From an uncultured Bacilli bacterium (GTDB lineage Bacteria; Bacillota_I; Bacilli_A; RF39; UBA660), in contig CAKOQC010000001.1 of assembly GCA_934101175.1 (NCBI GenBank), forward strand, positions 276,882-340,881: DNA of 64,000 nucleotides, in the 5' to 3' direction. How positions within the stretch are numbered: position 1 is the first letter of the stretch; every line of letters starts with the position of its first letter. The notes under the pieces are model-generated. The model was not told the DNA's origin. It made no database searches and was given only the letters and a program-made list of their open reading frames with translations. Made by a program: the position numbers and the translations under genes. This document shows positions 1,939-40,097 of the stretch, one piece after another.

Positions 1939-2026
1939 AAAACAAAAATCATACTTTAGTGCTTGATAAAAAAATAAATATATTATATAATTAAGAAAAG
2001 TAAAATAAAAAGGAAAAGTGATATCT

Positions 2027-3316
2027 ATGCAAAACAATATAGATTTTATTAATACACCAGTCGTAGACGTCGTTAATCGTATTATCTTAGACTCTGCTAA
2101 GATTGGTGCTAGTGATATTCACTTCGATCATACAGACCATTGTCTAAAAGTAAGAATAAGAATAGATGGTGTTCTAAATGATTATGCTGATATTCCTAAC
2201 GAAGTAAAAAATAATGTTATTACTAGAATTAAAATCTTATCTGGAATGAATATTACCGAAACAAGACTTCCTCAAGACGGTGCTATTAAAACCGAACTTG
2301 GTGGTCTAAATCTAGATATGAGAGTTTCCTCCCTACCAACTAAAAAGGGAGAAAAAATCGTAATAAGAATATTAGATTATTCAAGAAGTTTACAAGGTAT
2401 TGAATACCTATATTTTTCTGAAGATAATTATAAAAAAGTTATTAAAATGATAGCAGCCCCAAACGGTATTATCTTAGTAACGGGAGCTACTGGTAGTGGT
2501 AAATCTACTACCGTATATTCCTTCTTACAAAAGTTAAATGTTAAAGGAACAAATCTAATTACTGTTGAAGATCCCGTTGAAATGGATATCGAAGGAATTA
2601 ATCAGGTTCAAGTAAATAGTGATATCGGACTAGATTTTGCTACTGTTTTAAGAAGTATTTTAAGACAAGACCCCAATGTCATAATGATTGGAGAAATAAG
2701 AGATAGTGAAACTGCTCAAATAGCTGTAAGAGCTGCCATTACTGGGCACTTAGTACTATCAACACTACACACTAATAACTCCCTAACTACTATTGAAAGA
2801 TTATTGGATATGGATGTTGAAAGATACTTATTAGCATCAGCCTTAACTGGTATCGTATCTCAAAAACTAGCTCGTAAATTATGTGATAATTGTAAAAGAG
2901 TTAGAGCCACTTCTTCTTATGAAAAAGAAATGTTTAAAAAATTTCTAAATTTAGATGTAGAACAAATTTATGATGCTGTTGGTTGTCCACATTGTTCATC
3001 AGGATATCGTGGACGTATCGCTCTTCAAGAAGTATTACTAATCTCTCCAGAAATAAGAGATGCCATCAATGCTCGTATACCTAAAGCTAAGTTAAGAGAA
3101 TTAGTTTATAGTAGTGATGTTATTACTCTACTACAAGATGGTCTATATAAAGTAATTGCTGGACTTACTTCAATAACTGAAGTAATCAAATTAACTGAAG
3201 CTGATGATGAAGTTAATGCAGAAGAAAAAATTAAAAATACTATGATGACTGAAGAAGAAAAACAAAAAGAAGAAGACATAATTGAAAATCAAATAGAAAA
3301 TGCTTTCCAAGAATAA
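2027..3316 (+). CDS. Type II/IV secretion-family ATPase (PilB/GspE-like), short form lacking the N-terminal domain
   Basis: Walker A GATGSGKST, Walker B region VIMIGEIRD, and a tetracysteine motif CDNC...CPHC. The track ORF starts at GTG 2018. ATG 2027 has better spacing from the AAAAGGAAAAG RBS. No pilC, pilin or pilM genes are adjacent. Confidence 0.8.
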   Translation: MQNNIDFINTPVVDVVNRIILDSAKIGASDIHFDHTDHCLKVRIRIDGVLNDYADIPNEVKNNVITRIKILSGMNITETRLPQDGAIKTELGGLNLDMRVSSLPTKKGEKIVIRILDYSRSLQGIEYLYFSEDNYKKVIKMIAAPNGIILVTGATGSGKSTTVYSFLQKLNVKGTNLITVEDPVEMDIEGINQVQVNSDIGLDFATVLRSILRQDPNVIMIGEIRDSETAQIAVRAAITGHLVLSTLHTNNSLTTIERLLDMDVERYLLASALTGIVSQKLARKLCDNCKRVRATSSYEKEMFKKFLNLDVEQIYDAVGCPHCSSGYRGRIALQEVLLISPEIRDAINARIPKAKLRELVYSSDVITLLQDGLYKVIAGLTSITEVIKLTEADDEVNAEEKIKNTMMTEEEKQKEEDIIENQIENAFQE

Positions 3317-5500: not shown

Positions 5501-5639
5501 TAGTATCATAAGTTTTAATTCTACTTAAATATATATTTTACATCTATAAGTAAATCTTCATATAAATATTTCATATTTTTTTAAATAAATTCCATGCAAT
5601 TTTTGTAAATCTATGGTATAATTATAATTAGGTGAGAAT

Positions 5640-6164
5640 ATGAAAAGTAATTATATAATTGAATATGTTAATGAAAATGAATTTAGAAAGAAAGAAAGAG
5701 CTGTCAAGAAATATAATATGTTAGCATACAAAAAATTACTATTTGATTACTATCCAAGCCTTCGTGAAGGAAATTTTCAAGGTGTATTAGTATCTTCTAA
5801 TGAAAAAGATATGATTGATAAGTATGAATTAACATTACCTACTGATAAGACTTTCACTATGGTTCATGGTAATATTACTCTTCATTATTCAGTCTATTTA
5901 AATCAAAAGATTGTCATGTTAGAAACCTTAACTCCAGAAGAAATATTAACTGAAGGTCATCAAAAAGAACTAACTACTTATAAAGGTGTCATGGTATCTA
6001 AATCCCATAAAGAATTAGATATGTTTAAAATAAATCTTTTAAATAGTATGAATAAGAATGGTTTCTTTAAATTAAATAAGTTATCTATCTGGATATTAAG
6101 TATCTTATCTGTTATCTTATTAACAATAATTACTATCTTATCTGTAAAAGCTATAATTAAATAA
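5640..6164 (+). CDS. Hypothetical protein, paralog A1 of 39669..40097, with an extra C-terminal TM anchor
   Basis: Residues 4-140 are ~65% identical to the 142 aa protein at 39669..40097. Examples are NYIIEYVNENEFRKKERAVKKYNMLAYKKLLFD and LTEGHQKELTTYKGVMVSKSH. A C-terminal hydrophobic helix is added. Confidence 0.4.
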   Translation: MKSNYIIEYVNENEFRKKERAVKKYNMLAYKKLLFDYYPSLREGNFQGVLVSSNEKDMIDKYELTLPTDKTFTMVHGNITLHYSVYLNQKIVMLETLTPEEILTEGHQKELTTYKGVMVSKSHKELDMFKINLLNSMNKNGFFKLNKLSIWILSILSVILLTIITILSVKAIIK

Positions 6165-11664: not shown

Positions 11665-12024
11665 CTACTTCATATTTCTTTTTATCCATTCCATAATAAT
11701 ATCTACTATAAAATCTACTTCTTTATCACTTAATACTTTATTCTTATCTATATGATACCATTTCTCTAAACACCCTCTACAACAAGTCGCTGTAGCATGT
11801 TCTGAAATAAATACCGGATGTCCCCTCATCGGTGTCTGTTTTCCATCATTAATATTACTAATATCTCTAAGCCTTTTATTAATAAAATCATATGCATGAC
11901 TTCTTATCTTATCAAGTCCTTTATCATTAATATATTCTATATCTTTCTCTTTTAATTTAAAACTACTTCTAAATTTAGATTTACTAAGTCTATCTAATAT
12001 TTCATCTTTATTCATAATTTTCAT
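11665..12024 (-). CDS. Small conserved protein with a CCRGC motif (DUF4186-like)
   Basis: 119 aa with HATATCCRGCLEKWYHI. Confidence 0.3.
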   Translation of the reverse strand: MKIMNKDEILDRLSKSKFRSSFKLKEKDIEYINDKGLDKIRSHAYDFINKRLRDISNINDGKQTPMRGHPVFISEHATATCCRGCLEKWYHIDKNKVLSDKEVDFIVDIIMEWIKRNMK

Positions 12025-13204
12025 CTCTAAATTTTACCAAGATATTAGCTACTTCTGCTGTAGAACCTACTCTCATACTAGGTCCATATACCCCAACTCC
12101 ACTAGTAACAATACTCTTCATATTACCAACAGTGATCATTCCATAAGGATTTTTCCATATAATCTTTCCAAAAACATTTGAAGGAAACATCTGTCCATTA
12201 TGTGTATGTCCTGATAAATCAATATCTACCCCAGAGCTTTCTAATTCTTTAAACTCTTTAGGTTCATGGTCTATCATAATTATAGGTTTACTCTTATCTA
12301 CTTCTTTAAGTAGTTCACTAGGACTTTTTCTCTCTTTCAAACCAATTATTCCCAGTTTATGATAATCAAGTCTTCCTCCAAGATAAAAACTATCATCAAT
12401 TAATACTACCTCATCTTGAAGAAGCTTAATATTAGCCTTCTTAAGAAATTCATCCATCTCTGGAGCACTAGTACCAACATTATTTTTCCAACTAAAAGTA
12501 AATCCTGCTAAGATAGCTTCTTCTATATCATGATTTCCATATACTGCATATACTCCATAAGTAGCTTTAATCTTCTTAAGAACATTAATAAACTCTTCAT
12601 CCCTATCAATAGCTGCATAATCATTATCAAAAATATCTCCTGCTATTACTACTAAATCATTCTTATTCTTATTAATAATATCTACCATCTTTTCAATATG
12701 TTCTATCTTACTATTATATCCAAGATGTAAATCTGATACTAAAGATATCTTAAGATTATTAAGTTTACTTATCTTATTAATAGTAATTTCATACTTAGTA
12801 TCATTAATCTTATTAGCGTGTATTACTCCATATGTAGATAATATTGCTACTATTAAGATACATATACTACCTCCTACTAAGAATGTCATCTTACTACTAA
12901 GTTTATCTTGATTTATTCCTTTACATTTCTTAAGAATAATTCTAATTAAATCAGCTATAATAACTGTCATTACTATATATTGAACAACTCCAAGCCAGTA
13001 ATTGCCTACTACTCTAATCCATCTTACTGGTAAGAAAAATCCTACTATAAATGAACTAGCAAAAAGTATATATATGTATACTATTACCATTTTGATATAT
13101 TTATTTTTAAACCATTTACTAAAACATTCTAACCATTTAATTAACCACTTAACGATATATATATTTATAACTATATATACTGGTGCTAAGAATAATGCTA
13201 TCAT
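12008..13204 (-). CDS. Membrane-anchored calcineurin-like metallophosphoesterase (YkuE-like)
   Basis: N-terminal TM helices followed by LVSDLHLG, VIAGDIFDN, GNHD and GHTHNGQ. Confidence 0.7.
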   Translation of the reverse strand: MIALFLAPVYIVINIYIVKWLIKWLECFSKWFKNKYIKMVIVYIYILFASSFIVGFFLPVRWIRVVGNYWLGVVQYIVMTVIIADLIRIILKKCKGINQDKLSSKMTFLVGGSICILIVAILSTYGVIHANKINDTKYEITINKISKLNNLKISLVSDLHLGYNSKIEHIEKMVDIINKNKNDLVVIAGDIFDNDYAAIDRDEEFINVLKKIKATYGVYAVYGNHDIEEAILAGFTFSWKNNVGTSAPEMDEFLKKANIKLLQDEVVLIDDSFYLGGRLDYHKLGIIGLKERKSPSELLKEVDKSKPIIMIDHEPKEFKELESSGVDIDLSGHTHNGQMFPSNVFGKIIWKNPYGMITVGNMKSIVTSGVGVYGPSMRVGSTAEVANILVKFRDENYE

Positions 13205-28313: not shown

Positions 28314-28511
28314 ACCTAAAAAAATTAGCAATACAAAATTAATGTACTGCTAATTCGTATTATCCCATTTTCATCATTTTATTACTCACAGGAACCTACT
28401 GTTTATGTATTTAATCACTTATGTGATTAGGAACTAAACCTCTACGATAATCCATATTTGTAATATCCTTGAATATTAAATACTGAAGACATAAGTCTTA
28501 TATATTGTAGT
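28314..28511. repeat. Conserved ~195 bp 3' flank shared with 46867..47048
   Basis: About 95% identical to 46867..47048. On the minus strand it contains a small hairpin (aagac-ttat-gtctt) directly after the stop codon, a palindrome aatcac-tta-tgtgatt, and a ttagca...tgctaa hairpin plus T7 run, which is a candidate terminator. Confidence 0.7.
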
Positions 28512-30368
28512 CTAGGCCACCAACGAAGAACGAAATCCGCTGTTGTTGTTGGCATTGCCATGGTAGTTGCTAAAGTAAAACACGCCGACAGTAGAACCAC
28601 CGCTATAGCCGCCGCCTCGCCTCAACCATGGGTAATTGGCACTAACAAAGCCCGCGTAATCACCATACCAACTACTAACCTCGGATAAACCATGTCCATA
28701 ACATATTCCACCATTACAAGCAGTTAAGGCATTAGTCGTTGTATAATCATCATAATATTTACTATCTGGTTTACTATTAAACCCAGCACTATTTCCTCCC
28801 CATGTTGTACTTGCACCACTATAATATCCCATGACATATTCATATGCTCCTCCAGACATATCATATATTCCCGTAATATTTCCTGTGGTACTTGCTACTT
28901 TTGTTAAATCTCTTGTACTACTTTTGGTATTAGTACCATAATTTAATAAATATCCATCCCACGTATAATATCCATAACTATTGTATTGTTCTGTTGAAGT
29001 TTGAGCTGTATATGTTTTATTTATTGGAGTTTGGTAGCCAACATTGCCACCACTTCTTCCAGTATAATATGATGATGAGTTATTAATATATATTTCTCTA
29101 TTTGCTCCATATTTTGAATGTGATAGATATGCAGCGGCTCCCCATTCATCATTCTTCATCATATGACTATCTGTGTTTGAAGTTATTCCGTATGTTGTAC
29201 CACCTAGTAACTGTGCTGTAGTGAATTGTACTGATACTTTTTGACTTCTTAATGAAGATACATCTGGTAATATTGTAGGACTAGAAGCTGTACCTGTTGT
29301 TTCAAATTTTCCTACCCATATTCCTGATAACTCTTCTCCTTCATCTCTTACTCCATCACTATCATTATCCCACCAAAATGCTGGGTGAGTTATATATTCG
29401 CCAACTTGTGTTCCTTTTGATATTGTATCTTTATCTTCAAAAATTATATCTATTGTTTGTTCTTTACCATTTTCATCATTGTCAGCTATAGACCATATCT
29501 GATATTTATATCTTGGTATCCAGACATAATATGCAAGTATATCTGCTTGATTAATTTCTACTCCAGAATTATTTTTATAATAATCCCTAGTTTGAGTACC
29601 ACTCTCTTTTACTAATACTACATTAGCCCATTCTTGATTAGAATAATTATACCAAGAATTATCTGTACTAGATATTGTTTTTATTACCGTACCATTTGAT
29701 GTATCAAAAACTATTGGTATCATTCCATCATCAAGTACTGGTGCATTAGGTTCTTCTTTTTGGTCCACACAGCTTCCATTTAAAGAAAGTTCAAATGATT
29801 GGTTCATGGTATCTGAACTAGTTTCTTTAGCATCTAACCATATCCATAAATAATATGTTTCTGTTGTAGTACTGCTATAATCTTTATCTGTAAATAGTCT
29901 TACTTTATTATTTTTAGCAAGTCCTCCAAAATTACCAGAAATAATTACTCCAGTATCTTTATCAGTACTACTTGTATTTAATACATACATTAAATTACTA
30001 CTGATAGCTAAATTATCTGAAATACTTTTTATATCTAACCATAAGTCCATATAAATAGTTTTACCTTCTTTAGTAATCGTAGGCATTACTTTTACTTCTC
30101 TTTTTATATAGTTAGCTGTGGTAGTATCGTTAACTTCTGTTGGTATTAAATTAATTGTACCTGATGTGATATCTCCACCACCATCAGCTGCACAACTAAA
30201 ATCACTTTCAATGGTGAAGTTTACTACTGTCTTTTGTTCTTCGGTACTCTGCCAACGCCAATATGCTAAAGTTCCCCCAATAATTGCAATTACTAGTCCA
30301 AATATAGCAATTATTATCAATGTTTTCTTATTTTTTTCCATACATTTCTCCTTCAAAAAAGTCCTCAA
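28512..30368 (-). CDS. Membrane-anchored surface protein with a C-terminal FGE-sulfatase / C-type-lectin-like domain, copy 1
   Basis: 618 aa with an N-terminal signal anchor. C-terminal FGE-domain-like motifs are EWGAAAYLSHSKYG, GIYDMSGGAYEYVMGY, RRGGGYSGG and the terminal GFRSSLVA. The last ~50 codons are GC-rich. It is ~80-85% identical to copy 2. Confidence 0.6.
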   Translation of the reverse strand: MRTFLKEKCMEKNKKTLIIIAIFGLVIAIIGGTLAYWRWQSTEEQKTVVNFTIESDFSCAADGGGDITSGTINLIPTEVNDTTTANYIKREVKVMPTITKEGKTIYMDLWLDIKSISDNLAISSNLMYVLNTSSTDKDTGVIISGNFGGLAKNNKVRLFTDKDYSSTTTETYYLWIWLDAKETSSDTMNQSFELSLNGSCVDQKEEPNAPVLDDGMIPIVFDTSNGTVIKTISSTDNSWYNYSNQEWANVVLVKESGTQTRDYYKNNSGVEINQADILAYYVWIPRYKYQIWSIADNDENGKEQTIDIIFEDKDTISKGTQVGEYITHPAFWWDNDSDGVRDEGEELSGIWVGKFETTGTASSPTILPDVSSLRSQKVSVQFTTAQLLGGTTYGITSNTDSHMMKNDEWGAAAYLSHSKYGANREIYINNSSSYYTGRSGGNVGYQTPINKTYTAQTSTEQYNSYGYYTWDGYLLNYGTNTKSSTRDLTKVASTTGNITGIYDMSGGAYEYVMGYYSGASTTWGGNSAGFNSKPDSKYYDDYTTTNALTACNGGICYGHGLSEVSSWYGDYAGFVSANYPWLRRGGGYSGGSTVGVFYFSNYHGNANNNSGFRSSLVA

Positions 30369-30548
30369 GTATTCTACTTTATAGCTCTTTATTATGGTTA
30401 AATTATACTATAAATAAAGGAATTACACAAGATATATAGATAAATTTTGTAAGAAAAATTTCTAACTTTTATATTTTAATATTTTTAAATAAAGTCAATA
30501 TTTTCAAGGGTTTATGTTACATTTATAAAATTATTAAGTAGAATACTT
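30367..30548. promoter_or_regulatory. Invertible promoter switch, orientation ON for copy 1
   Basis: A 156 bp core (30380..30535) is flanked by perfect 13 bp inverted repeats, aagtattctactt (30367..30379) and aagtagaatactt (30536..30548). The core is the reverse complement (~90% identity) of the core at 49334..49489. A minus-strand sigma-A promoter TTGTGT-N17-TATAAT (30402..30430) points into the copy 1 gene. Its RBS is GAAGGAGA. Confidence 0.75.
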
Positions 30549-30590
30549 TATAACTTTTTTCTTTTATATTATTATAGATAAAGAAAAATC

Positions 30591-39668: not shown

Positions 39669-40097
39669 CTATTTTTCTATCATATTTAATAGATTAATTT
39701 TAAATATATCTTTCTCAGCATGAGACTTAGATACCATTACTCCTTTATATGTAGTAAGTTCTTTTTGATGTCCTTCTGTTAGGATATCATCAGGTGTAAG
39801 CGTATCTAACATAATAATTTTTTGATCATGATATACTGCATAATGCAAGATTATATCTCCATGCACTTTATTAAACATACTATCAGTAGGTAATTTTAAT
39901 TCATAATTAGTAATATTCTTCTCTTTATTATGAGATACCATTACTCCTAGAAAATTACCATCTCTTAATGAAGGATAAAAATCAAATAATAATTTCTTAT
40001 AAGCTAACATATTATATTTTTTTACTGCTCTTTCTCTTTTTCTAAACTCATTTTCATTTAGATATTCTATTACATAATTATTATTCATTTTATCCAC
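39669..40097 (-). CDS. Hypothetical protein, paralog A2 of 5640..6164
   Basis: 142 aa. See paralog A1. Confidence 0.4.
   Translation of the reverse strand: MDKMNNNYVIEYLNENEFRKRERAVKKYNMLAYKKLLFDFYPSLRDGNFLGVMVSHNKEKNITNYELKLPTDSMFNKVHGDIILHYAVYHDQKIIMLDTLTPDDILTEGHQKELTTYKGVMVSKSHAEKDIFKINLLNMIEK

What the first reader, a model, noticed from the sequence alone, without database searches (positions are those of the whole stretch)
28512..28665. Hypervariable, GC-rich C-terminal cassettes of FGE/C-type-lectin-fold proteins with an adenine-codon (AAY) diversification pattern
The two paralogs are highly similar over about 560 residues but diverge sharply in the last ~50 codons. That stretch spans the final strands of the FGE-sulfatase-like domain and ends in GFRSSLV. 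In a ~25% GC genome these 3' modules are about 50% GC and use GCG, CGC, GGC and CCG codons. A third, unexpressed version of the module (47049..47212) encodes 11 Asn in ~45 residues, all as AAC or AAT. At 9 of those 11 positions copy 1 carries GGC, AGT, TAC, GGC, AGC, GGT, ACT, TAC or CAT, all reachable from AAY by changing only the adenines. At the corresponding positions copy 2 carries AAT, AAT, GCT, GTC, GTA, AGC, GGT, TAT, GAC and ATG; all but ATG and the third-position change in GTA are again single-adenine substitutions. In my hand alignment of orphan versus copy 1, roughly three quarters of nucleotide differences fall at codon positions 1-2 rather than position 3. That is the reverse of neutral divergence. 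Diversity-generating retroelements work this way: a variable region at the C-terminus of a C-type-lectin/FGE-fold protein is mutated from an AAY-rich template repeat. There are caveats. The window contains no reverse transcriptase. Several differences are at non-adenine positions. The closest pair here is only ~78% identical. This therefore looks like the historical or trans-acting footprint of DGR-type mutagenesis, or strong diversifying selection, rather than an intact cis cassette.
Basis: partly seen in the sequence, partly recalled or inferred. Interest (0 to 1): 0.85.

Follow-up and report, generated by a model that had tools for sequence, protein, structure and literature searches.

The report
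Decayed DGR: fossil variable regions
The GC-rich, hypervariable gene ends are the fossil of a diversity-generating retroelement: its template repeat and flanking RNA element survive, its reverse transcriptase is missing from the window, and the variable regions no longer change between strains.

Summary
Two paralogous surface-protein genes (c1 28512..30368, c2 47432..49309, minus strand) are 84.5% identical in the body and 66.7% in the last ~50 codons, which are 49-58% GC. An Asn-rich orphan module (47049..47212) lies 220 nt past the c2 stop.

Metagenome relatives (L034, L037) carry a complete DGR: target-VR, spacer, TR, a ~190-nt post-TR element, MutS-like gene, Avd, reverse transcriptase. 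There, 81-86% of TR/VR mismatches fall at TR adenines. The window's spacer, orphan and downstream element are colinear with that cassette, so the orphan is a template-repeat homolog.

Using TR-adenine columns defined from relatives only, the three window modules differ at 58% of adenine columns and 10-22% of the others (Fisher 2e-8 to 1e-4).

The window holds no RT, Avd or MutS-like gene. The orphan mismatches the VRs at many non-adenine positions. The c1 VR is invariant across 12 protein variants and six assemblies. One strain swapped the c2 VR by recombination.

c1 is a VR joined directly to the post-TR element. It is a decayed, frozen DGR.

In passing: both paralogs sit behind invertible promoters, seen in both orientations across samples.

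The parts
47432..49309 (-). c2: target-type gene. ORF of 625 aa from TTG; the called protein P0001/P0121 is 620 aa from the ATG at 49294. It has an N-terminal hydrophobic anchor, a beta-rich region and an FGE-sulfatase-like C-terminal part.
47435..47590 (-). VR2: fossil variable region of c2, 49-58% GC, ending in GFRSSLVVDGA.
47213..47431 (-). VR-TR spacer with two hairpins. One core, TTTTGCCTCTTTTTTTGCAAAA, is invariant in intact DGR relatives. The spacer is 85% identical in L007 and 80% in L001.
47049..47212 (-). Orphan module: a template-repeat (TR) homolog. The 5' half is AAY-rich like intact TRs. The 3' half has lost about 10 consensus adenines. Homology with the VRs ends at ...CGTTGGT, the same boundary as in intact cassettes.
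46866..47061 (-). Post-TR element, starting with the GACTACAAT box and ending in a terminator-like hairpin at 46874-46906. It is homologous to the stretch between the TR and the MutS-like gene in intact cassettes, and is probably the 3' domain of the DGR template RNA.
28512..30368 (-). c1: paralogous target-type gene. ORF of 618 aa from TTG; the called protein P0124 is 609 aa from the ATG at 30341.
28515..28665 (-). VR1: fossil variable region of c1. Its stop codon TAG is formed at the junction with the GACTACAAT box, so the VR abuts the post-TR element directly.
28314..28511 (-). Second copy of the post-TR element, 97% identical to the copy at 46866-47061 (the gene bodies are 84.5% identical).
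   Evidence: (D4)
30355..30560 (.). Invertible promoter segment upstream of c1. The 29-nt inverted repeats are at 30355-30383 and 30532-30560, with a 148-nt inner part.
   Evidence: (I2)
49310..49513 (.). Invertible promoter segment upstream of c2. The 33-nt inverted repeats are at 49310-49342 and 49481-49513. The inner part lies in the opposite orientation to the c1 copy.
   Evidence: (I2)

Best explanation
These are the remains of a diversity-generating retroelement (DGR) of the MutS-like/Avd type.

The ancestral unit was: target gene with a C-terminal VR, a spacer of about 200 nt, the TR, a structured post-TR RNA element of about 190 nt, a MutS-like gene, Avd and the RT.

In an intact unit the TR-containing RNA is reverse-transcribed with misincorporation opposite adenines. 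The cDNA then replaces the VR, randomising the AAY-encoded positions of the ligand-binding face. This mechanism is established knowledge for DGRs and is not shown here.

That process wrote the adenine-column-specific divergence now seen among VR1, VR2 and the orphan TR. Avoidance of adenine outside the AAY codons is an inferred cause of the GC-rich composition in a 25% GC genome.

In this lineage the accessory genes and the RT have been lost from both loci.
- At c2 the VR, spacer, TR and post-TR element remain.
- At c1 the VR now abuts the post-TR element. The most likely cause (inferred) is recombination between the directly repeated VR and TR, or an ectopic exchange with the c2-locus copy, that deleted the spacer.

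With no sign of mutagenic homing between strains, the VRs are frozen.

Variation of these proteins today comes from two other sources. One is recombinational replacement of the VR patch, seen in one strain. The other (inferred) is on/off switching of each paralog by an invertible promoter.
For: 1. Relatives with a complete DGR. L034, L037 and L036 hold VR/TR repeats of 110-145 nt at 85-87% identity, spaced 321-326 nt. Pfam gives RVT_1 E=1.5e-17, bAvd E=1.5e-20 and MutS_I E=4.5e-9. The RT carries the GNYTSQ...YVRYMDD motif. TR-to-VR mismatches at TR adenines are 18/21, 24/28, 13/16 and 17/21.

2. Colinear homology. The window's spacer, orphan and downstream element align with the spacer, TR and post-TR region of those cassettes. 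The TR/VR homology boundary is the same (...GTTGGT) and the TR ends at the same GACTACAAT box.

3. Adenine-column excess. Mismatch is 58% at adenine columns against 10-22% elsewhere, p=2e-8 to 1e-4, with clean TR-versus-TR controls. Divergence at non-adenine columns (10-22%) brackets the body divergence of 15.5%.

4. Loss of the machinery. No RT, Avd or MutS-like hit in the window by motif scan, tblastn or Pfam on all 50 ORFs scanned: every ORF of at least 150 aa plus two smaller ones.

5. Frozen VRs. The c1 VR plus downstream stretch (401 nt) is 100% identical in six assemblies. Among 12 c1 protein variants, 89 columns vary and none lies in the last 60. The c2 stretch from upstream of the VR through the post-TR element (801 nt) is identical in L094.

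6. The fusion is one of several decay routes.
- L021, orthologous to the c1 locus, keeps VR-spacer-TR.
- L079 has the same VR/post-TR junction, followed by a frameshifted MutS-like gene and an RT with internal stops.
- L007 keeps the spacer plus 32 nt of TR. L001 lacks the TR. L045 has a truncated TR and a MutS-like remnant.

7. Recombination, not retrohoming. Strain L095 differs from the window only in a patch of about 370 bp covering the VR and part of the spacer. Its TR and post-TR element are 100% identical.
Against: - Only 64 kb of the genome is visible, so an RT elsewhere cannot be excluded.
- The post-TR element is 97% identical between the two loci and 100% between strains. That is higher than the gene bodies, and could mean it is still under selection and not just recently converted.
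- The order of events (VR x TR deletion or ectopic exchange; when the RT was lost) is inferred from comparisons, not observed.
- Even the intact relatives show 3-4 non-adenine TR/VR mismatches each, so the family may tolerate some imperfection.
- The C-type-lectin/FGE fold could not be confirmed structurally (pLDDT 44 and 38).
Confidence: 0.85

Rival explanations
1. The system is still an active DGR served in trans. An RT (with Avd) encoded elsewhere in the genome would use the orphan TR plus post-TR RNA, or another TR, to diversify VR1 and/or VR2 at low frequency.
For: - The TR and post-TR element are intact in length and highly conserved: 97% between the two loci and 100% between strains.
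- DGRs with remote targets are known, for example Treponema denticola (PMC5758913).
- Only 64 kb of the genome was examined.
Against: - The orphan differs from VR2 at 28 non-adenine positions and from VR1 at 20. A homing event would reset these.
- The VRs are invariant across six assemblies and 12 protein variants.
- The one VR change seen within the species also replaces part of the spacer and changes the 3' end (GFRTVLSQIGA), which retrohoming from this TR cannot do.
- The orphan TR has lost about 10 consensus adenines.
- None of the 120 RT-homolog clusters listed (of 1978 hits) has a longest contig matching the contig lengths recorded for this species. This is a weak test.
Confidence: 0.07
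2. The pattern is ordinary paralog divergence under diversifying selection on a binding surface, with no retroelement history. The orphan would then be a pseudogene fragment from a partial duplication.
For: - Another stretch of the body (aa 136-180) is also only 53-60% identical between c1 and c2.
- Taking the orphan as template, fewer than half of the mismatches are at its adenines.
Against: - The excess divergence is confined to columns that are adenines in the TRs of other genomes.
- The orphan, its upstream spacer and its downstream element are colinear with bona fide TR contexts that are followed by MutS-like, Avd and RT genes.
- The GC-rich, adenine-poor composition outside AAY codons is not expected from selection on protein sequence alone in a 25% GC genome.
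Confidence: 0.02
3. The orphan works as a silent donor cassette for gene conversion into the expressed gene ends, giving recombinational antigenic variation, and it is kept for that purpose.
For: - The VR patch is exchanged by homologous recombination within the species (L095).
- c1 carries a junction best explained by recombination involving a TR-flanking copy.
- The modules share identical 3' blocks (TTTCGTTCTTCGTTGGT) that could support crossover.
Against: - The swapped-in VR of L095 matches another lineage's VR (P0037), not the orphan.
- No VR in the 12 + 4 cluster members is a mosaic containing orphan sequence.
- There is a single donor copy, whereas known cassette systems keep many.
Confidence: 0.06

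Closest known systems
MSL-containing DGRs ('Architecture D' of Wu et al. 2018, PMC5758913; the Legionella DGR carries an MSL gene)
   Same: The intact relatives of this locus (L034, L037) have a MutS-domain-I protein, bAvd and an RVT_1 RT together with a TR/VR pair biased to adenine mismatches. The window's spacer, TR and post-TR element are homologous to theirs.
   Different: - The window lacks MSL, Avd and RT.
- TR/VR mismatches are no longer restricted to adenines.
- The TR lies directly after the target gene and upstream of MSL-Avd-RT. I did not check whether that exact gene order is among the published Architecture D variants.
Treponema denticola TvpA and other DGR variable proteins of the FGE-sulfatase / C-type-lectin class
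   Same: - The VR sits in the last ~50 codons of an FGE-sulfatase-like domain.
- The variable codons derive from AAY.
- The domain ends in a conserved GFR motif.
- There are several paralogous targets per genome.
   Different: - Pfam FGE-sulfatase is below threshold in c1 and c2 (E=0.002-0.005) and passes only in longer homologs.
- No PDB sequence hit.
- No usable structure model.
- The Treponema DGR uses HRDC, not MSL (PMC5758913).
Bordetella phage BPP-1 DGR (Mtd/Avd/TR/Brt)
   Same: - The logic of a TR/VR pair.
- A homology boundary at the 3' end of the VR, like the IMH.
- A hairpin just past the VR in the intact relatives (GTGATGC-GAA-GCATCAC).
- A structured region downstream of the TR, which in BPP-1 is needed for priming (PMC5703328).
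   Different: - Gene order differs: here the TR precedes Avd.
- The context is chromosomal housekeeping genes, not a phage.
- The hairpin is not preserved after VR2 or VR1.
- There is no RT.
Invertible promoters (invertons) of gut bacteria
   Same: Inverted repeats of 29-37 nt flank a segment of about 135-150 nt immediately upstream of a surface-protein gene. The same segment occurs in both orientations in different samples, and assemblies break at the repeats.
   Different: - No invertase gene lies in the 64-kb window.
- Promoter hexamers are not above shuffled background in this AT-rich DNA, so the ON/OFF assignment is inferred.

Membership tests
Diversity-generating retroelement (functional cassette) | A DGR-clade reverse transcriptase encoded with the element | tested here: not met
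   No hit in the 64-kb window by the G...SQ/YxDD motif scan, by tblastn with the L034 RT, Avd and MSL, or by Pfam on the 50 ORFs scanned: every ORF of at least 150 aa plus two smaller ones. The rest of the genome cannot be seen.
Diversity-generating retroelement (functional cassette) | A template repeat and a variable repeat of about 100-150 bp, with the VR at the 3' end of a target gene | tested here: met
   The orphan at 47049-47212 and VR2 at 47435-47590 lie 381 nt apart start to start (D7). The orphan is colinear with the TRs of intact cassettes.
Diversity-generating retroelement (functional cassette) | TR/VR mismatches (almost) only at TR adenines | tested here: not met
   Orphan to VR2: 16 of 44 mismatches at adenines. 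Orphan to VR1: 15 of 35. Intact relatives show 81-86%.
Diversity-generating retroelement (functional cassette) | An accessory protein (Avd, HRDC or MSL) | tested here: not met
   tblastn with the L034 Avd and MSL finds nothing in the window. There is no bAvd or MutS_I Pfam hit.
Diversity-generating retroelement (functional cassette) | Ongoing VR diversification in populations | tested here: not met
   The c1 VR stretch is 100% identical in six assemblies. None of 89 variable protein columns falls in the last 60 residues. The only VR2 variant is a recombinational swap. Read-level data were not available.
DGR remnant (descended from a DGR) | Sequence homology of the non-coding parts (spacer, TR, post-TR element) to those of intact DGR cassettes, in the same order | tested here: met
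   Alignments A2 and A5. By blastn the window's post-TR element is 86% identical to L045, 81% to L079 and 67-70% to L034-L037. A 22-nt spacer core is 100% identical in all.
DGR remnant (descended from a DGR) | Excess divergence confined to positions that are adenines in related TRs | tested here: met
   58% against 10-22%, Fisher p=2e-8 to 1e-4. TR-versus-TR controls are not significant.
FGE-sulfatase / C-type-lectin-fold DGR variable protein | The C-terminal domain belongs to Pfam PF03781 or adopts the CLec fold, with VR residues on the binding face | tested here: inconclusive
   - PF03781 scores E=0.0017 and 0.0047, below the gathering cut-off, in c2 and c1.
- 22 of 37 family members hit at E<=0.01.
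- Homologs P0054 and P0082 pass the cut-off (34.4 and 39.3 bits against 23.3).
- A PDB profile search found nothing.
- AlphaFold models were unusable (pLDDT 43.8 and 37.7).
Invertible promoter (inverton) | The segment is flanked by inverted repeats and found in both orientations at the same locus | tested here: met
   Inverted repeats of 29 and 33 nt. At the c1 locus, the 148-nt inner segment is 100% identical and lies in the window's orientation in L089, and inverted in L088, L090, L091 and L092. Contigs L092 and L093 end inside the repeats.
Invertible promoter (inverton) | A site-specific recombinase and a promoter inside the segment | tested here: inconclusive
   No recombinase domain appears in the window's ORFs. 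Promoter-like matches are no more frequent than in shuffles. A perfect TATAAT points toward c1 and away from c2.

The most novel reading that the evidence does not exclude
The TR plus post-TR RNA unit may be retained under selection and not merely not-yet-decayed.

It is 97% identical between the two loci, where the genes are 84.5% identical, and 100% identical between strains. One reading is that it still templates rare mutagenic homing with an RT encoded elsewhere.

A second reading concerns c1, a VR fused directly to the priming element. Such a gene end would serve as both template and target and would progressively erode its own adenines. The adenine-specific erosion seen in the orphan TR and in the TR of L033 hints that TRs in this family can themselves be hit.
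Probability: 0.08. Interest if true: 0.65.

Novelty: new member of a known kind. Interest (0 to 1): 0.42.

Why it matters
DGR surveys are seeded on the reverse transcriptase, so RT-less remnants like this one are systematically missed. Here a family with over 5000 homologs scoring E<=1e-5, mostly from animal and human gut metagenomes, mixes intact cassettes with several stages of decay:
- a TR kept without an RT;
- a truncated TR;
- a VR fused to the post-TR element;
- a pseudogenised RT.

That gives a concrete picture of how DGRs die, and of how a hypervariable binding domain becomes a fixed allele.

It also warns annotators that a GC-rich, AAY-patterned gene end is not evidence of ongoing hypermutation.

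In this species, variation of these surface proteins now appears to come from recombinational swaps of the VR patch, and probably from promoter inversion that switches each paralog on or off.

The conserved post-TR element, which has covarying helices, is a candidate for a DGR template-RNA motif. It matched no Rfam family in the stretch of the window I scanned.

Tried and rejected
- **Genome scan wasted.** I used the only genome-contig scan on the exact pattern GGNTTTCGTTCTTCGTTGGT. It returned four unrelated hits, about the number expected by chance for 19 specified bases in 596 Gb. The organism is therefore unnamed and its genome could not be searched for an RT.
- **Viral contigs.** Neither the DNA pattern nor the protein family occurs there.
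- **Rfam.** Nothing in 26-50 kb of the window except a tRNA.
- **Structure prediction.** The full-length model (37 sequences) gave pLDDT 43.8. The C-terminal domain alone (68 sequences) gave 37.7. Both are unusable, so I ran no fold search. The homologs retrieved are too similar to one another (at least 62% identical).
- **PDB profile search.** No hits.
- **The orphan as current template.** Rejected because of the non-adenine mismatches.
- **VR-to-TR gene conversion as the cause of TR erosion in L033.** Not supported: only 2 of the 12 changed TR positions match that locus's own VR.
- **Linking an RT to this genome.** I compared the contig lengths of RT-homolog clusters with those of this species. 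There was no match, and the test is weak.
- **Promoter scans of the invertible segments.** Matches are not above shuffled background.
Full report
**What is in the window**

Two paralogous genes lie on the minus strand: c1 (28512..30368) and c2 (47432..49309). A codon alignment gives 84.5% nucleotide and 82% amino-acid identity over 563 body codons. Over the last 51 codons this falls to 66.7% and 55%. GC rises there to 0.49-0.58, in a window that averages about 0.25.

A third module (47049..47212, minus strand) begins 220 nt downstream of the c2 stop. It has no upstream open reading frame and encodes 11 Asn in about 45 residues.

The roughly 200 nt after this orphan (46866-47061) are 97% identical to the 200 nt after the c1 stop (28314-28511). 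That is well above the identity of the genes themselves (D4).

The two layouts are therefore:
- c2: gene, VR2, stop, 220-nt spacer, orphan, downstream element.
- c1: gene, VR1, stop, downstream element.

**Checking the adenine claim**

If the orphan is taken as the template, only 15 of 35 mismatches to c1 and 16 of 44 to c2 are at its adenines.

The pattern is nevertheless not ordinary divergence. I defined 'TR-adenine columns' from seven template repeats found in other genomes, using none from the window. This gave 36 adenine columns and 104 others. Mismatch rates in the window are then:
- orphan versus c1: 58% at adenine columns against 10% elsewhere (Fisher p=2e-8);
- orphan versus c2: 58% against 20% (p=3.5e-5);
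- c1 versus c2: 58% against 22% (p=1e-4).

TR-versus-TR comparisons show no such bias (p=0.19-0.68).

Divergence at non-adenine columns brackets the 15.5% divergence of the gene bodies. All the excess divergence of the cassette therefore sits at adenine columns.

**What it is**

The protein family is very large: 5020 homologs scored E<=1e-5 among the 8000 candidates examined, almost all from ENA gut metagenomes. Their C-termini are hypervariable and rich in Y, S, G, D, N and F.

I fetched 78 metagenome loci encoding relatives. A motif scan found DGR-type reverse transcriptases (GNYTSQ...YVRYMDD) in five of them.

In L034 the order is as follows:
- target gene (697 aa), with the VR at 11944-12088;
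- a spacer of about 180 nt;
- the TR at 12270-12414, 86% identical to the VR;
- a non-coding stretch of about 190 nt;
- a 131-aa ORF, a 118-aa ORF and a 345-aa ORF.

Pfam identifies the three ORFs as MutS domain I (E=4.5e-9), bAvd (E=1.5e-20) and RVT_1 (E=1.5e-17). This is the MSL-containing class, 'Architecture D', of Wu et al. 2018 (PMC5758913).

In these intact cassettes TR-to-VR mismatches are at TR adenines in 18/21 (L034), 24/28 (L035), 13/16 (L036) and 17/21 (L037) cases.

Alignment of the window's c2 downstream region with L034 and L037 is colinear throughout:
- The spacer shares a hairpin whose 22-nt core is 100% identical.
- The orphan aligns with the TR. Homology to the VR ends at the same ...GTTGGT boundary.
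- The TR is followed by the same GACTACAAT box.
- The downstream element aligns with the post-TR stretch.

The orphan is therefore a template-repeat homolog, and the downstream element is the conserved region that follows the TR.

That post-TR element is conserved at 81-86% nucleotide identity in loci whose target proteins are only 42-55% identical to c2 (L079, L045). RNAalifold finds two hairpins and a long-range helix, and 5 of 26 pairs carry compensatory changes. It ends in a terminator-like hairpin.

By analogy with the region downstream of the TR that the Bordetella phage RT needs for priming (PMC5703328), I infer that it is the 3' domain of the template RNA. This is an inference, not a test.

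**What is missing**

The window has no reverse transcriptase, Avd or MutS-like gene. The evidence is the motif scan, tblastn with the L034 proteins, and Pfam on the 50 ORFs scanned, which cover every ORF of at least 150 aa plus two smaller ones.

The c2 cassette ends at the terminator of a convergent DUF6020 gene. The c1 cassette ends at the promoter of the next gene.

The surrounding genes are chromosomal housekeeping genes: MraW, PBP, Mur ligase, RecG, RecD2, RNase J, acetate kinase and CotE. This is a spore-forming low-GC Firmicute chromosome, not a prophage.

**How it decayed**

Relatives show several stages of decay:
- L021 is orthologous to the c1 locus, since it has the same downstream promoter and gene. 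It still has VR, spacer and TR, but no post-TR element.
- L007 keeps the spacer and the first 32 nt of the TR.
- L001 is orthologous to the c2 locus and lacks the TR altogether.
- L045 has an internally deleted TR and a truncated MutS-like gene.
- L079 has the same arrangement as c1: the VR runs straight into the GACTACAAT box. It is followed by a frameshifted MutS-like gene, an Avd gene, and an RT with internal stops.

The simplest explanation for c1 (and L079) is recombination between the directly repeated VR and TR, probably within their identical 3' block, deleting the spacer. An ectopic exchange with the c2-locus copy would also explain the 97% identity of the two post-TR elements. I cannot tell these apart.

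The orphan TR is itself eroded. Its 5' half is AAY-rich like intact TRs (NYNNGSNAGVFNF). In its 3' half about 10 consensus adenines are replaced (DRLNGDAFSNGG, where intact TRs encode NNNNGNANNN).

The TR of L033 shows the same effect. Eleven of its 12 differences from a sister TR are at adenines, and only 2 of the 12 match its own VR. TRs in this family therefore seem to be hit occasionally by adenine mutagenesis.

**Is it still active?**

The evidence says no.
- The 12 protein variants in the c1 cluster vary at 89 of 609 columns, and none of these lies in the last 60.
- The c1 VR plus downstream stretch (401 nt) is 100% identical in six assemblies from different samples. An 801-nt stretch of c2, from upstream of the VR through the post-TR element, is identical in another.
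- The one within-species VR2 variant (P0123, locus L095) is identical to the window on both sides. It differs in a patch of about 370 bp that spans the VR and the 5' part of the spacer, and it has a different 3' end (GFRTVLSQIGA). Its VR matches that of another lineage (P0037). That is homologous replacement, not retrohoming from the orphan TR, which is 100% conserved in that strain.
- A search with an RT from the closest lineage listed 120 clusters (of 1978 hits). None has a longest contig matching the contig lengths recorded for this species. This is a weak negative result.

An RT elsewhere in the genome cannot be excluded with 64 kb of sequence.

**The fold claim**

Pfam FGE-sulfatase is below its threshold in c1 and c2 (E=0.0047 and 0.0017). 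It hits 22 of 37 family members at E<=0.01 and passes the threshold in the longer homologs P0054 and P0082. The motif GIYDMSGG..EYVMG and the terminal GFR are typical of that domain; this rests on my own knowledge.

A profile search of PDB sequences found nothing. Both AlphaFold runs gave unusable models (pLDDT 43.8 and 37.7). The fold is likely but not shown.

**Noticed on the way: invertible promoters**

Immediately upstream of both genes lies a segment of about 205 bp bounded by inverted repeats of 29-33 nt, with the core AAGTATTCTACTT. The inner part is in opposite orientations at c1 and c2 (I2).

At the c1 locus, for a gene encoding the identical protein, the 148-nt inner segment is 100% identical in every assembly. 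It has the window's orientation in L089 and is inverted in L088, L090, L091 and L092. Two contigs (L092, L093) end exactly inside the repeats.

This is direct evidence of DNA inversion, that is, phase-variable expression. A perfect TATAAT box points toward c1 and away from c2. Promoter scans in this AT-rich DNA are not above background, so the ON/OFF assignment is inferred.

The same repeats occur upstream of relatives L008 and L045, but not upstream of the intact-DGR loci L034 and L037.

**Verdict**

This is a decayed, RT-less DGR of the MSL/Avd type, with a surviving but eroded template repeat, two fossil variable regions, and one VR fused to the post-TR element.

It is a new, degenerate member of a known kind. 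It is a useful example of DGR decay and of a conserved post-TR RNA element, but it is not a new mechanism.

Noticed in passing
window 30355-30560 and 49310-49513; loci L088-L093: Invertible promoter segments upstream of both paralogs. Inverted repeats of 29-33 nt flank an inner part of about 140-150 nt. At the c1 locus, the inner part is 100% identical but lies in opposite orientations in different metagenome assemblies. Two contigs break inside the repeats. No invertase gene is in the window.
   Followed up: partly
L095 5650-6030 versus window 47270-47650: A strain of the same species has a patch of about 370 bp (the c2 VR plus the 5' part of the spacer) replaced by a version from another lineage. 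Both flanks, the TR and the post-TR element are 100% identical. The VR cassette is exchanged by homologous recombination.
   Followed up: yes
L033 2261-2402 (TR) versus L036 3168-3309: The TR of an otherwise complete cassette differs from a sister TR at 12 positions, 11 of them adenines, and only 2 of the 12 match its own VR. The TR itself appears to have been adenine-mutagenised. The 3' half of the window's orphan TR looks the same.
   Followed up: partly
L079 1500-3563: The VR runs directly into the GACTACAAT box of the post-TR element, as at c1. It is followed by a frameshifted MutS-like gene, an intact Avd gene, and an RT interrupted by stop codons. This is an intermediate stage of DGR decay.
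   Followed up: partly
window 46866-47061 and 28314-28511; alignment A5: The post-TR element is a conserved, apparently structured RNA. It has the GACTACAAT box, two hairpins with compensatory changes, a long-range helix and a terminator-like hairpin. It has no Rfam match, and is more conserved between the two loci (97%) than the genes are (84.5%).
   Followed up: partly
window c1/c2 residues 136-180 (about 48770-48900 in c2): A second divergent stretch of the two paralogs, only 53-60% identical in amino acids. It is not GC-rich and has no AAY pattern.
   Followed up: no
window 5634-6045 and 39683-40094: A 412-nt inverted repeat, 76% complementary, linking two small ORFs without Pfam hits (174 aa at 5640-6164 on the plus strand; 142 aa at 39669-40097 on the minus strand). 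The second lies near an 872-aa protein that also has no Pfam hit.
   Followed up: no
L007 12150-12400: In this relative the truncated TR is followed by what reads like a T-box leader upstream of a tyrosyl-tRNA synthetase gene. This was judged by eye and not tested.
   Followed up: no
L002 8557-10671; window 2018-3316: Type IV pilus / type II secretion genes lie near family members: T2SSF and a prepilin peptidase in L002, and a T2SSE ATPase in the window. The family's N-terminus is a single hydrophobic helix. No link was tested.
   Followed up: no
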